This document shows positions 45,151 through 61,551 of a stretch of DNA of 64,000 bases, piece after piece. The DNA is taken from the NCBI GenBank assembly GCA_016839555.1, contig JAEOUA010000012.1, positions 160,001 to 224,000 on the forward strand. The letters run 5' to 3'. Numbering within the stretch: position 1 is the first letter of the stretch; each line of letters starts with the position of its first letter. Made by a program: the position numbers and the translations under genes. Below the pieces are notes generated by a model. It made no database searches. It was not told where the DNA came from and was given only the letters and a program-made list of their open reading frames with translations. Source of the DNA: Promethearchaeota archaeon (GTDB lineage: Archaea > Asgardarchaeota > Lokiarchaeia > Sigyniarchaeales > SOKP01).

Positions 45151-46720
45151 ATGAGATTAAAAGTAAAAAAAATTAATTTTGAAACAGGCCACATGAAAGA
45201 TGTAGTTTTAAATTATCTAGATGCTGCTAAACTGGATAAAAAAGCTGGCGAACGAGTCATAATCAAAAATGTTGAATCAAAAAATTTGGATGAGAAATAT
45301 TGGGTTGCAATTATTCAAATATCACATTCTGATAATATAGTTGCACCTGGAGAATTAGGTGTTTTCGTAGATACATTAAATGATATAAAAAATCTCAGAG
45401 CTGAAAGTGAAGTTTCCGTAAAACCTGCAAACCCTCCAGATTCATATCAATATATTAAAGAAAAAATAGCTGGGAAAAAATTAAGGACTGAAGATATCAA
45501 CGATATTGTTAACGATGCAGTCTCTGGGCTTCTTTCACGAATCGAATTATCCTCTTTTATCACTAGTGTATCCATTCATGGTATGAGCAATAGAGAAATG
45601 AAGGCCTTAACCCTTGCTGAAGCAAAAAGTGGGGAGGCATTCGATTTTGGTCCGAATGTCTATGATAAGCATAGTACATAAATTTACATATCAGTAAATT
45701 TAGCTAAAAGGAGGCGTCCCGGGTAATAAGGTCTCATTAATTATCGTTCCTATTATTGCAGCAGAAGGATTAACCATTCCCAAAACGAGCACGAGAGCCA
45801 TTACTTCCCCTTCAGGTACAGCAGACTCGATGGAAGTTTTAGCTCCAATTGAATTTAACTCGGAAGAAGTAAAAAGAATCATTTCAGAAATAGGAGCTTG
45901 TATTATTTGGGGGGGTGCATTAGATATTGCTCCAGCTGATAATGTGTTAATTGAAGTAGAGAGACCTTTACATTTAGATCCATGGGGACTGATGATTCCA
46001 TCAATATTGGCAAAGAAAAAATCGATGGGGGTGAAGCAATTGGTATTGGACATCCCTGTGGGAGGCGGAACTAAATTCAGCACTCCTGATGATGGAAAGA
46101 AATTTGCTCATATATTTAAACAAATAGCAAGTAGTGTAGGAATTGAATCAGAATGCGCACTTACTTTAGCTCATCAACCCATAGGGCATAATATTGGACC
46201 TGCCTTAGAGGCGAAAGAAGCGTTAACTCTATTACGAGATTATTCTGCTGGTCCAAATTCCCTTATTGAAAAATCTACTTCATTAGCGGGAATAATTTTT
46301 GAAATGGCAGGAAAAGCATCTAAAGGAGAAGGTCAGAAATTGGCTAAGGATATATTGAAATCAGGCAAAGCCTATCAAAAAATGCAAAAAATTATCGAAA
46401 TTCAAGGTGGCAATCCGGATATTACTCCAGAAGAAATAAATTTAGGTCCCTATAAAAAGGACTTTTATTCAACTAAATCAGGATTTATTACTGAGGTTGA
46501 TAATGCGATAATTAATCAAATTTCAAAAACAGCAGGATGTCCTTTTTCTAAAACCTCTGGTGTAATTGTTTATAAGAAGCAAGGGGCAAAAATCGAAGAG
46601 GGTCAAAAAATTCTTACTGTATATTCTAACAGCAAAACTAAACTCAGAAGAGCAATGAAGTTTTATAATATTAGTGGAGGCCCAGTAATTCTAGGGGGTA
46701 TGTTGATTGAGAGAATATAA
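45151..46720 (+). CDS. AMP phosphorylase (thymidine phosphorylase family), two exons: 45151-45677 and 45709-46720; 512 aa after splicing
   Basis: N-terminal barrel extension; DKHST|GGVPGNK, PKTSTRAITSPSGTADSMEVLAP, WGGALDIAPAD, SILAKK, DIPVG and GPALEA motifs. Confidence 0.9.
45678..45708 (+). other. Candidate 31-nt BHB-type mRNA intron
   Basis: 9-bp stem UAAAUUUAC/GUAAAUUUA, 4-bp helix UAGU/GCUA, 3-nt bulges ACA and AAA; removal restores both the frame and the motif. Confidence 0.8.
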
Positions 46721-60186: not shown

Positions 60187-61551
60187 TCAAACAGAAGTAA
60201 ATTCGGTTTTTTTTGGTGGAAATAAGTTTAAGGATACACCTAATTCATGTGCCTCTTCTTGTTTGGCGTATTGTTTAACTGATATTCCTTGCATTGCAGC
60301 ATCTATAGCTTGTCGAAAGGCTCTAGCCCCTGCAATTGGTCCCTCCGGATGAGCATGTATTGCTCCTCCACTCCCAATCATAATATTTGGACCTAAATCC
60401 TCCACAATCTTTTCAACTAATCCTTGTGTAATACCACCACTGGGCATTGGCATTGTACGTTTAATATGAGGCGCATTGCGCATCGGCATAACCATTTGAC
60501 GAGCAGTTTCCAAAAACTTGTCTTTACTTGTAGGTGCTTTTCCATAAGGAGCAGGATGGACAATTGTATCACAGCCAGCTAATCTTCCGAATTTTCCAAG
60601 TATTAAGGGGCTACTAACGCCTCCCCATGGATCTTGATATATAGCTCCAGCAAAATCCATATGTCCTAAGATGGGAACTTTCACGGAAGGATCTTCTGCC
60701 AATTTTCTCATTGCAGAATATCCAACTGAGATGTGATTAACCATTAATGCATTTGCTCCATGTTCTTGGGCTATGTCTGCAAGCTCGAACATCCGATCTA
60801 CTCTATCTGTGATATTGACGGTATATAATGTTTTTTCTCCTTTTTCCTCATCTGCCCTATCAAGCGCTTCCATAAATTTGGTAAGCCTTTCGGTTAAAGG
60901 ATTAAAATCAACATCAGCAATTAATTCATCGTCTTTGATCACATCGCAGCCTCCTACAGCCGCTTGATAAGCTAATTCTGCAGCTGGTGTTTCTGAAAGC
61001 GTATAGACACAAGGTTTTATCATATTATTTAATAAAGGTCTCTCAGGTACTCCTAAGATTTTTCTAATCCCTATATCTCCAAATTTTGGCCCTTTAAATT
61101 CCTTCAAGAATGCTTTTGGAAAACGCACGTCCACCATTTTAAGAGGTCCACCCATAGAAATATTACCGAAAATAGTGGTAAATAGCATAGGAAATTGCGG
61201 TCTGAAATTTAATGGATAAGCGACTTGTACTATCCAATCTCTATATTTAGGATTATCAAAAAAGTCTTCGACACCTTCATATTCATAATCGGGAACTGAC
61301 CATAACCCAATAACTTTTGCAACGTGTTTTCTCCTTGTTTCGGGTGTTTCCGCAGGAACAGCAACAAATGTCCCTGTGCTCTGCTCTATACATAAACTCT
61401 GTGTCATATAAAACGCATCCATTTTCCTATGGAGTTTGGCAATATAAGTTGCGATGATATGAGTCTCATAATCAATATCTTCTGGTAAGGCATTAGGTCT
61501 ACTTAATCTATCTAAATCAAATTTATCAAATTCTTCCGGCAATTTTGACAT
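60187..61551 (-). CDS. RuBisCO-like protein (form IV)
   Basis: EQSTGT, GPKFG, NMIKPC, IKDDEL, PSGG and HAHP present; has HMDFAG and PAPYGK in place of the form I-III HRAMH and loop-6 motifs. Confidence 0.88.
   Translation of the reverse strand: MSKLPEEFDKFDLDRLSRPNALPEDIDYETHIIATYIAKLHRKMDAFYMTQSLCIEQSTGTFVAVPAETPETRRKHVAKVIGLWSVPDYEYEGVEDFFDNPKYRDWIVQVAYPLNFRPQFPMLFTTIFGNISMGGPLKMVDVRFPKAFLKEFKGPKFGDIGIRKILGVPERPLLNNMIKPCVYTLSETPAAELAYQAAVGGCDVIKDDELIADVDFNPLTERLTKFMEALDRADEEKGEKTLYTVNITDRVDRMFELADIAQEHGANALMVNHISVGYSAMRKLAEDPSVKVPILGHMDFAGAIYQDPWGGVSSPLILGKFGRLAGCDTIVHPAPYGKAPTSKDKFLETARQMVMPMRNAPHIKRTMPMPSGGITQGLVEKIVEDLGPNIMIGSGGAIHAHPEGPIAGARAFRQAIDAAMQGISVKQYAKQEEAHELGVSLNLFPPKKTEFTSV

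What the first reader, a model, noticed from the sequence alone, without database searches (positions are those of the whole stretch)
45672..45712. Candidate endonuclease-spliced (BHB) intron in a protein-coding gene: AMP phosphorylase
Seen in sequence: the conserved DKHSTGGVPGNK motif is interrupted by 31 nt that add an immediate TAA and shift the frame. The RNA folds as UAGU (45672-75), bulge ACA (45676-78), a perfect 9-bp stem UAAAUUUAC/GUAAAUUUA with loop AUAUCA, GCUA (45703-06, pairing with UAGU), then bulge AAA (45707-09). Established: archaeal splicing endonuclease cuts after the second nucleotide of each 3-nt bulge flanking a 4-bp helix. Applying that rule removes 45678-45708 and joins AGT AC|A GGA GGC = S-T-G-G, giving an intact 512-aa protein. 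Both exons show no other lesions, and exon 2 has no in-frame ATG/GTG/TTG until 45830. The exon-exon helix is weak, so this is a relaxed BHB or bulge-helix-loop. Archaeal mRNA introns are known mainly from crenarchaeal cbf5 and a few other genes; I do not know of one in an Asgard metabolic gene. Inference: tRNA-type splicing is needed to express this enzyme, possibly as a regulatory switch, conceptually like HAC1/XBP1 non-spliceosomal splicing.
Basis: partly seen in the sequence, partly recalled or inferred. Interest (0 to 1): 0.95.

Follow-up and report, generated by a model that had tools for sequence, protein, structure and literature searches.

The report
tRNA-type mini-intron in AMP phosphorylase
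The only AMP phosphorylase gene of this Asgard (Promethearchaeia) archaeon is broken inside its active-site motif by a 31-base hairpin shaped like an archaeal tRNA intron. Because 34 related species keep the hairpin with compensating mutations, the mRNA very probably has to be cut and rejoined by the tRNA-splicing enzymes, which has been confirmed in archaea for only one other protein gene.

Summary
Window 45678-45708 (31 nt) splits DKHS|T|GGVPGNK of an AMP phosphorylase (TIGR03327). It brings an immediate TAA and a frameshift. It folds as a 4-bp helix, a 3-nt bulge, a 9-bp stem-loop and a second 3-nt bulge.

- 34 of 118 orthologues in the same family carry a 29-31 nt insert at exactly this site. 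None of 22 in other families of the class do.
- The structure is 98% paired, and 10 of 13 pairs show compensatory changes. The exon His wobble base covaries with the intron (UA 25, CG 9, none unpaired).
- Both exons are intact in all 34 carriers, with dN/dS of 0.12 and 0.08, the same as in intron-less genes.
- Independent metagenome contigs hold the insert.
- The genome encodes two EndA paralogues (one catalytic-like, closest to the Aeropyrum alpha subunit) and RtcB.

The motif is relaxed: no exon-exon outer helix forms here. No RNA run was available, so splicing itself is not shown. The patchy distribution (at least 12 gains or losses on the gene tree) argues against an indispensable regulatory switch.

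This scan had already noted the same intron in at least 14 other genomes, and other mRNA mini-introns in this genome. I re-checked argG myself.

Verdict: a real feature and a new member of a known kind.

The parts
45151..45677 (+). Exon 1 of AMP phosphorylase (175 codons plus the first 2 nt of the Thr codon)
   Evidence: ORF from ATG 45151. TIGR03327 positions 1-165, 108 bits. Intact in all 34 intron-bearing orthologues. dN/dS 0.12.
45672..45675 (+). 5' strand of the central 4-bp helix H (UAGU; exon 1: His wobble base plus the Ser codon)
   Evidence: Pairs with 45703-06. 100% paired in 34 sequences, with UA/CG covariation at the His wobble. The Ser codon is AGY in 34/34 carriers, against TCN in 23/54 intron-less genes.
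45676..45678 (+). 5' bulge ACA; inferred 5' cut after 45677
   Evidence: 3 unpaired nt between H and the intron stem in all 34 sequences. The cut position is inferred from the canonical rule and from the frame.
45678..45708 (+). 31-nt intron (equally 45679-45709)
   Evidence: Interrupts profile positions 165/167. Homologous 29-31 nt inserts lie at the same site in 33 other species. Present in DNA contigs of runs X1, X2 and X4.
45679..45702 (+). Intron hairpin h': 9-bp stem 45679-87/45694-45702 with 6-nt loop 45688-93
   Evidence: 97% paired across 34 sequences; 8 of 9 pairs have compensatory changes. Also predicted by RNAalifold and, as an 8-bp stem, by the single-sequence fold.
45703..45706 (+). 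3' strand of helix H (GCUA; intron)
   Evidence: Covaries with the exon His and Ser codons.
45707..45709 (+). 3' bulge AAA; inferred 3' cut after 45708; not closed by an outer helix in this sequence
   Evidence: The third bulge base varies among orthologues (A, U, G, C) and always completes a Thr codon ACN. An outer helix is limited to C-G plus a pair absent here.
45709..46720 (+). Exon 2 of AMP phosphorylase (last nt of the Thr codon, 336 codons, stop)
   Evidence: TIGR03327 positions 167-500, 456 bits. No start codon before 45830. dN/dS 0.08.

Best explanation
The 31 nt at 45678-45708 are a tRNA-type intron inside the AMP phosphorylase pre-mRNA, with a relaxed bulge-helix-bulge motif of the HBh' kind. 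In the transcript, the last base of the His codon and the Ser codon (UAGU) pair with GCUA near the 3' end of the insert to form the 4-bp central helix. A 9-bp intron hairpin closes the 5' bulge (ACA), and the 3' bulge (AAA) is open towards exon 2. The heterotetramer-type splicing endonuclease (two EndA paralogues in this genome) is inferred to cut after the second base of each bulge. RtcB is inferred to join the exons to ...CAU AGU AC|A GGA GGC..., restoring DKHSTGGVPGNK and a 512-aa enzyme, while the intron is released (probably circularised). Shown here: the insert, its conservation, its covarying structure, selection on both exons, and the presence of the enzymes. Inferred: the cleavage, the exact cut sites and the ligation. 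The intron looks like an old, tolerated passenger of one Promethearchaeia family that has been lost precisely many times, rather than a required regulator.
For: Sequence and frame. Family match is split exactly at one residue. Single copy in the genome. The same-site insert occurs in 34 of 118 family orthologues, in 0 of 22 in other families of the class, and a pattern scan of 185,579 species genomes found true matches only in Promethearchaeota-type MAGs. Covariation: 98% of cells paired against 29-49% for slid controls, 10/13 pairs with double changes, 0/500 shuffles. RNAalifold gives the same structure. The competing exon hairpin has no compensatory change. The exon is constrained by the helix: Ser is AGY in 34/34 carriers against 31/54 intron-less genes. 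Exons are intact in all carriers. dN/dS is 0.12 and 0.08 with saturated dS. The insert is present in DNA contigs of three runs from two studies. EndA has two paralogues, one with Tyr/His/Lys and best PDB match to the 186-aa chain B of the Aeropyrum entry 3p1z, aligned without a gap through the loop region; the other lacks the His. RtcB is present. Pathway partners RuBisCO and an e2b2-family isomerase are intact. Asgard archaea are reported to carry the (alpha-beta)2 EndA with the L1 loop that allows relaxed motifs (PMC5829648).
Against: There is no RNA evidence: no RNA run holds the gene, so the spliced junction and the circular intron are unobserved. The motif is not canonical, because the exon-exon outer helix is absent in this sequence. 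The single-sequence minimum-energy fold prefers an alternative pairing of the 5' helix strand. Per base pair the number of independent evolutionary events is small: 3-5 for the His-wobble pair and 1 for the first stem pair. The cut sites cannot be told apart from a register 1 nt to the right.
Confidence: 0.85

Rival explanations
1. Split gene: the insert is a short spacer, and the enzyme is made as two polypeptides (176 aa and about 296-336 aa) that assemble, without any RNA splicing.
For: Both halves are intact and under selection. GGAGG lies at the start of exon 2 in this genome. Public annotations call the second half as a separate 338-339 aa protein.
Against: There is no start codon in the exon 2 frame until 45830, 40 codons downstream. 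The GGAGG is just the Gly-Gly codons and is GGTGGA or GGTGGC in most carriers. The break falls inside the DKHSTGG motif and would delete the Thr. This reading does not explain a helix that pairs exon with insert and covaries, or the AGY constraint.
Confidence: 0.05
2. Programmed translational bypassing: the ribosome hops over the 30-nt hairpin, as in phage T4 gene 60.
For: A stop codon directly follows the Thr codon and a stable hairpin follows it, which resembles the gene 60 take-off site.
Against: Bypassing needs matching take-off and landing codons. The 3 nt before GGN are AAA, AAU, AAG, AUU, ACU or AAC and match the take-off ACA or ACU in only 1 of 34 sequences. The helix between the His and Ser codons and the 3' end of the insert has no role in hopping, yet it covaries.
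Confidence: 0.04
3. Pseudogene or assembly artefact: the gene is dead, or the insert is not in the real DNA.
For: A stop plus a frameshift in the only copy.
Against: The insert is in 34 independent assemblies and in contigs of three runs from two studies. Both exons are free of lesions in all carriers. dN/dS is 0.08-0.12, equal to that of intron-less genes, although synonymous sites are saturated.
Confidence: 0.02
4. Spliced as in the main explanation, but kept as a regulatory switch that couples enzyme production to the tRNA-splicing machinery.
For: The structure has been maintained over a long time. Other metabolic genes of this genome carry similar inserts (earlier notes).
Against: 84 of 118 family orthologues lack the intron, including the two nearest relatives on the gene tree. 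At least 12 state changes are needed. No conserved sequence lies outside what the helices need. There are no expression data.
Confidence: 0.1

Closest known systems
BHB intron of the cbf5 (aCBF5 pseudouridine synthase) pre-mRNA in Crenarchaeota (Watanabe 2002; Yoshinari 2006; Yokobori 2009, PMC2738675)
   Same: [quoted passage not shown] The host has a hetero-oligomeric EndA. Distribution among relatives is patchy, with gain and loss.
   Different: A different gene (a metabolic enzyme, not an RNA-modification enzyme) and a different lineage (an Asgard Promethearchaeia family). Splicing of cbf5 was shown by RT-PCR and in vitro cleavage, whereas here it is inferred. PMC2738675 states that no archaeal pre-mRNA splicing had been confirmed for genes other than cbf5.
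Non-canonical tRNA introns of Asgard archaea (PMC11291895; bioRxiv 10.64898/2026.10.13.758758)
   Same: The same size class: ARAGORN finds 17 intron-bearing tRNAs here with introns of 8-43 nt. The motif logic and presumably the enzymes are the same.
   Different: [quoted passage not shown] The preprint holds no occurrence of 'mRNA', and its one mention of protein-coding genes concerns neighbouring genes used for locus matching.
HAC1/XBP1 unconventional mRNA splicing (IRE1 plus tRNA ligase or RtcB)
   Same: Non-spliceosomal removal of a short mRNA intron that changes the reading frame, with ligation by a tRNA ligase.
   Different: The endonuclease here would be EndA recognising a BHB, not IRE1 recognising twin stem-loops. 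There is no evidence of stress regulation.
Translational bypassing in phage T4 gene 60
   Same: A stop codon and a hairpin directly after the interrupted codon, with the coding sequence resuming about 30-50 nt later.
   Different: There are no matching take-off and landing codons, and the exon-insert helix is unexplained.

Membership tests
Archaeal bulge-helix-bulge (EndA-spliced) intron | 4-bp central helix between the two cut sites | tested here: met
   45672-75 pairs with 45703-06. 100% paired in 34 orthologues, with UA/CG and CG/UG/UA variation.
Archaeal bulge-helix-bulge (EndA-spliced) intron | Two 3-nt bulges on opposite strands, each closed by a flanking helix (strict hBHBh') | tested here: not met
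   The 5' bulge ACA is closed by H and the 9-bp intron stem. The 3' bulge AAA has no closing exon-exon helix in this sequence: only C-G, and the next pair is G/A here, although it pairs in 28/34 relatives. This is therefore the relaxed HBh' form, not the strict motif.
Archaeal bulge-helix-bulge (EndA-spliced) intron | Cuts after the second bulge base give a correct mature RNA | tested here: met
   The rule removes 45678-45708 and restores HSTGG with profile positions 165, 166 and 167 contiguous. In all 34 orthologues the junction reads AC|N = Thr.
Archaeal bulge-helix-bulge (EndA-spliced) intron | Host has a splicing endonuclease able to cut relaxed motifs, (alpha-beta)2 or epsilon2 type, and an RtcB ligase | tested here: met
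   Two PF01974 genes are present. The 198-aa one has Tyr/His/Lys and matches chain B of the Aeropyrum entry 3p1z at E = 5e-40 through the loop region. The 208-aa one lacks the His. RtcB scores 564 bits. The subunit roles are inferred from sequence.
Archaeal bulge-helix-bulge (EndA-spliced) intron | Observed cleavage and exon ligation in RNA | not testable with these tools
   No RNA run is listed for this gene.
AMP phosphorylase (TIGR03327, DeoA type) | Full-length match above the curated cut-off (535 bits) | tested here: inconclusive
   The exons score 108.4 and 455.9 bits on contiguous profile parts. The rough sum of 564 exceeds the cut-off, but the joined protein was not scored as one sequence.
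Programmed translational bypassing (gene 60 type) | Identical take-off and landing codons flanking the gap | tested here: not met
   Matched in 1 of 34 sequences.
Pseudogene | Relaxed selection or further lesions | tested here: not met
   There are no further stops or frameshifts in 34 carriers. dN/dS is 0.08-0.12.

The most novel reading that the evidence does not exclude
This intron is one visible member of a genome-wide population of EndA-spliced mini-introns in protein-coding genes of a Promethearchaeia (Asgard) family. They are gained or precisely lost many times (at least 12 state changes at this one site). On this reading, the closest prokaryotic relatives of eukaryotes routinely express interrupted protein genes through a spliceosome-independent mRNA splicing pathway.
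Probability: 0.6. Interest if true: 0.9.

Novelty: new member of a known kind. Interest (0 to 1): 0.75.

Why it matters
Archaeal pre-mRNA splicing by the tRNA endonuclease has been confirmed for one gene only, cbf5 in Crenarchaeota. Here a central metabolic enzyme of an Asgard archaeon appears to depend on it. The intron is old, structurally conserved and repeatedly lost, and other genes of the same genome look alike.

If RNA data confirm it, three things follow. Gene callers are systematically mis-annotating such genes: public records call the second half 'hypothetical protein' or 'thymidine phosphorylase'. Completeness and metabolic reconstructions of Asgard MAGs need correction. And interrupted protein genes with a dedicated removal pathway existed in the lineage nearest to eukaryotes, which bears on ideas about how introns were first tolerated.

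Tried and rejected
1. RNA evidence. The look-up of sequencing runs listed no RNA holder, so expression and splicing could not be tested. This says nothing for or against splicing.

2. Spliced transcripts hidden in the protein database. The best full-length hit (P0002, 96% identical to exon 2) lies on a syntenic multi-gene JGI contig that is 85-87% identical in DNA and uses a TCA Ser codon. It is an intron-less relative, not a cDNA.

3. Genome-wide census of mRNA introns by structure plus open-frame tests. Counts with the true cut sites were no higher than with cut sites shifted by 1-2 nt (338 against 355-388). AT-rich hairpins at operon junctions swamp the signal, so no census is claimed. The scan did recover this intron and argG.

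4. The insert as a repeat family. blastn-short found no other copy longer than 15 nt in the genome.

5. Known RNA family. There was no Rfam match at E <= 1.

6. The same intron outside the family. The two non-Promethearchaeota pattern hits (Methanoperedens and a Bacteroidetes MAG) were chance matches; Methanoperedens has an uninterrupted DKHSIGG.

7. The phylogenetically independent contrast test on single base pairs had too few events to reach significance (3/3 or 5/5 in the same direction, p = 0.25).

Full report
OBSERVATION. The sequence is exactly as described. The frame from ATG 45151 reads ...NVYDKHST and stops at TAA 45679-81. The next long frame has no ATG/GTG/TTG before 45830. Translated separately, 45151-45677 matches NCBIfam TIGR03327 (AMP phosphorylase) positions 1-165 (108 bits), and 45710-46720 matches positions 167-500 (456 bits). 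The break therefore costs exactly one residue of the DKHS-T-GGVPGNK motif. Removing 45678-45708 gives AGU AC|A GGA and a 512-codon gene. The register one base to the right gives the same product. The genome is 3.74 Mb in 12 contigs at about 30% G+C, with the window at C12:160001-224000. It has only this one copy of the gene.

IS IT CHANCE OR AN ARTEFACT? In a scan of both strands of the whole genome, 34,106 of about 1.65e8 (position, length 24-45) combinations met comparable rules: 4 paired bases, a 3-nt bulge, and a stem with at most one mismatch. That is about 2e-4 per combination, and the one at C12:205677 is exactly where the frame requires it. Logan contigs of three DNA runs span the insert with no differences: X1, the possible source; X2, another sample of the same study; and X4, a marsh metagenome of another study. 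A fourth run holds an intron-less relative. The insert is not a repeat and matches no Rfam family.

COMPARATIVE EVIDENCE. Searching the exon 2 protein in related genomes showed many orthologues whose open frame begins only 2-4 codons before the GG, just as here. I fetched all of them. 34 of 118 orthologues in the family carry a 29-31 nt insert at precisely this site, and every 30-nt (frame-preserving) version contains an in-frame stop. None of 22 orthologues in six other families of the class has it. The two outliers were chance matches.

On the 34-sequence alignment (A2, column 1 = window 45655), the proposed structure is 98% paired, against 29-49% when the 3' partners are slid by 1-3 columns. 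10 of 13 pairs have changes on both sides, and 0 of 500 shuffles reach any of the measures. The central helix is 100% paired, and its outermost pair joins the wobble base of the exon His codon to the intron: U-A 25 times, C-G 9 times, never unpaired. RNAalifold, run without my structure, returns the same helices. The alternative hairpin that the single-sequence fold prefers has no compensatory change and breaks in a third of sequences. The helix also constrains the exon: Ser is AGY in 34/34 carriers but TCN in 23 of 54 intron-less genes. A caveat on independence: on the gene tree the His-wobble switch happened only 3-5 separate times (all compensated), and the first stem pair switched once. 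The strength of the case lies in the number of pairs, not in any one pair.

THE GENE IS ALIVE. All 34 carriers have an intact exon 1, with 172-210 open codons including any in-frame leader and the conserved M(K/R)LKVK start, and a 336-codon exon 2. Nei-Gojobori dN/dS among carriers is 0.12 for exon 1 and 0.08 for exon 2, with dS about 1.5-1.7. Values for intron-less genes are 0.14 and 0.085. The partner genes of the archaeal AMP pathway are present: a RuBisCO large-subunit gene next to an e2b2-family isomerase gene on C1.

MACHINERY. The genome has two PF01974 genes. The 198-aa product keeps Tyr, His and Lys in the expected blocks. It aligns over its whole length, without a gap through the loop region, to the 186-aa chain B of the Aeropyrum pernix endonuclease entry 3p1z (E = 5e-40). 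The 208-aa product lacks the His and matches endonucleases more weakly. This fits an (alpha-beta)2 enzyme, the type reported for Asgard archaea with the L1 loop that permits relaxed motifs (PMC5829648). RtcB is present. ARAGORN finds only 28 tRNA genes, 17 with anticodon-loop introns of 8-43 nt. This is in line with the heavily interrupted tRNA genes reported for Asgard archaea (PMC11291895; bioRxiv 10.64898/2026.10.13.758758).

MECHANISM. Shown here: the insert, its conserved geometry, the selection on both exons, and the enzymes. Inferred: EndA cuts after 45677 and 45708, RtcB joins the exons, and the intron is released.

The motif is relaxed (HBh'). The 5' bulge is closed on both sides. The 3' bulge has no exon-exon helix in this sequence: only C45670-G45711 could pair, and the next pair, present in 28/34 relatives, is G/A here.

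EVOLUTION. On a maximum-likelihood tree of 84 orthologues (all 34 carriers plus 50 of the intron-less genes), presence or absence needs 19 changes, and at least 12 are forced by well-supported branches. This genome's nearest neighbours on that tree (L006, L009; 99% support) are intron-less and keep AGC ACA at the junction. A syntenic JGI contig that is 85-87% identical in DNA is also intron-less. The inserts are alignable across genera, so one old gain followed by many precise losses (or allele replacement by recombination) is the simplest history. That pattern speaks against an indispensable regulatory role.

RIVALS.
- A two-polypeptide split gene fails on three counts: there is no start codon, the break deletes a motif residue, and the covarying exon-insert helix goes unexplained.
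- Gene-60-type ribosome hopping fails because take-off and landing codons match in only 1 of 34 sequences.
- Pseudogene and assembly error are contradicted.

CONTEXT AND NOVELTY. Papers I could search confirm archaeal pre-mRNA splicing only for cbf5 of Crenarchaeota. PMC2738675 says so explicitly, and five full-text searches found no report for Asgard protein genes. The library is incomplete.

Earlier notes of this scan describe the same intron in at least 14 other genomes. They also describe similar inserts in other genes of this genome: RNase HII, a MoxR ATPase, top6B, argG, porB and cdhB. I re-checked argG myself: a 30-nt insert at C12:324996-325025 (minus strand), with the same helix-bulge-hairpin layout, restores YSGGLD|TS. 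For RNase HII I read the sequence only by eye.

I could not produce a reliable census. I file this as a new member of a known kind, of high interest because of the lineage and the likely multiplicity. Direct RNA evidence is still missing.

Noticed in passing
G000:C12:324996-325025, minus strand (outside the window): A 30-nt insert in argG with the same layout: GGUU / bulge / 9-bp AU hairpin / GAUU / bulge. Removing it restores the ATP-binding motif YSGGLD|TS.
   Followed up: partly
G000:C10 near 447294, minus strand: A structural candidate of 30 nt (an alternative of 24 nt exists). Its removal joins ...ILDFDLHTG|DGN..., which reads like a deacetylase-type D-x-H-x-GDG motif. Not checked by homology.
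   Followed up: no
G000:C12 about 69950-70000, plus strand: The RNase HII gene reads GLDEAG then, after about 28 nt, KGPVLGPM in another register. The structure was not analysed here.
   Followed up: partly
L047-L050 (genus g8 orthologues): The AMP phosphorylase open frame is only about 420 codons: about 83-95 codons lie before the junction, against about 175 elsewhere. Either the N-terminal domain is missing or it is interrupted further upstream.
   Followed up: no
window 60250-61065, minus strand: A second, weaker RuBisCO-large-family match (145 bits, 459-codon open frame) lies in this window. The stronger one (310 bits) is on C1 next to an e2b2-family isomerase.
   Followed up: no
public protein records: Exon 2 of intron-bearing orthologues is deposited as separate 334-341 aa proteins named 'hypothetical protein' or 'thymidine phosphorylase'. 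Intron-less ones of 509-512 aa are named AMP phosphorylase. The intron causes systematic mis-annotation.
   Followed up: partly
G103 contigs C103 and C128: One MAG (9% contamination) holds both an intron-less and an intron-bearing copy on different contigs. This is either a strain mixture or a presence/absence polymorphism.
   Followed up: no
whole genome G000: ARAGORN detects only 28 tRNA genes, 17 of them with introns. Many tRNA genes are probably hidden by non-canonical or multiple introns.
   Followed up: no
window 45656-45679: In this sequence alone the minimum-energy fold pairs CUAUG (Tyr/Asp codons) with CAUAG (His/Ser codons), competing with the central helix. The pairing is not conserved but could slow folding of the splice motif.
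   Followed up: yes
L094, L097, L098, L110, L117 (record titles): Several MAGs carrying this intron are titled Hermodarchaeota or Odinarchaeota.
   Followed up: no
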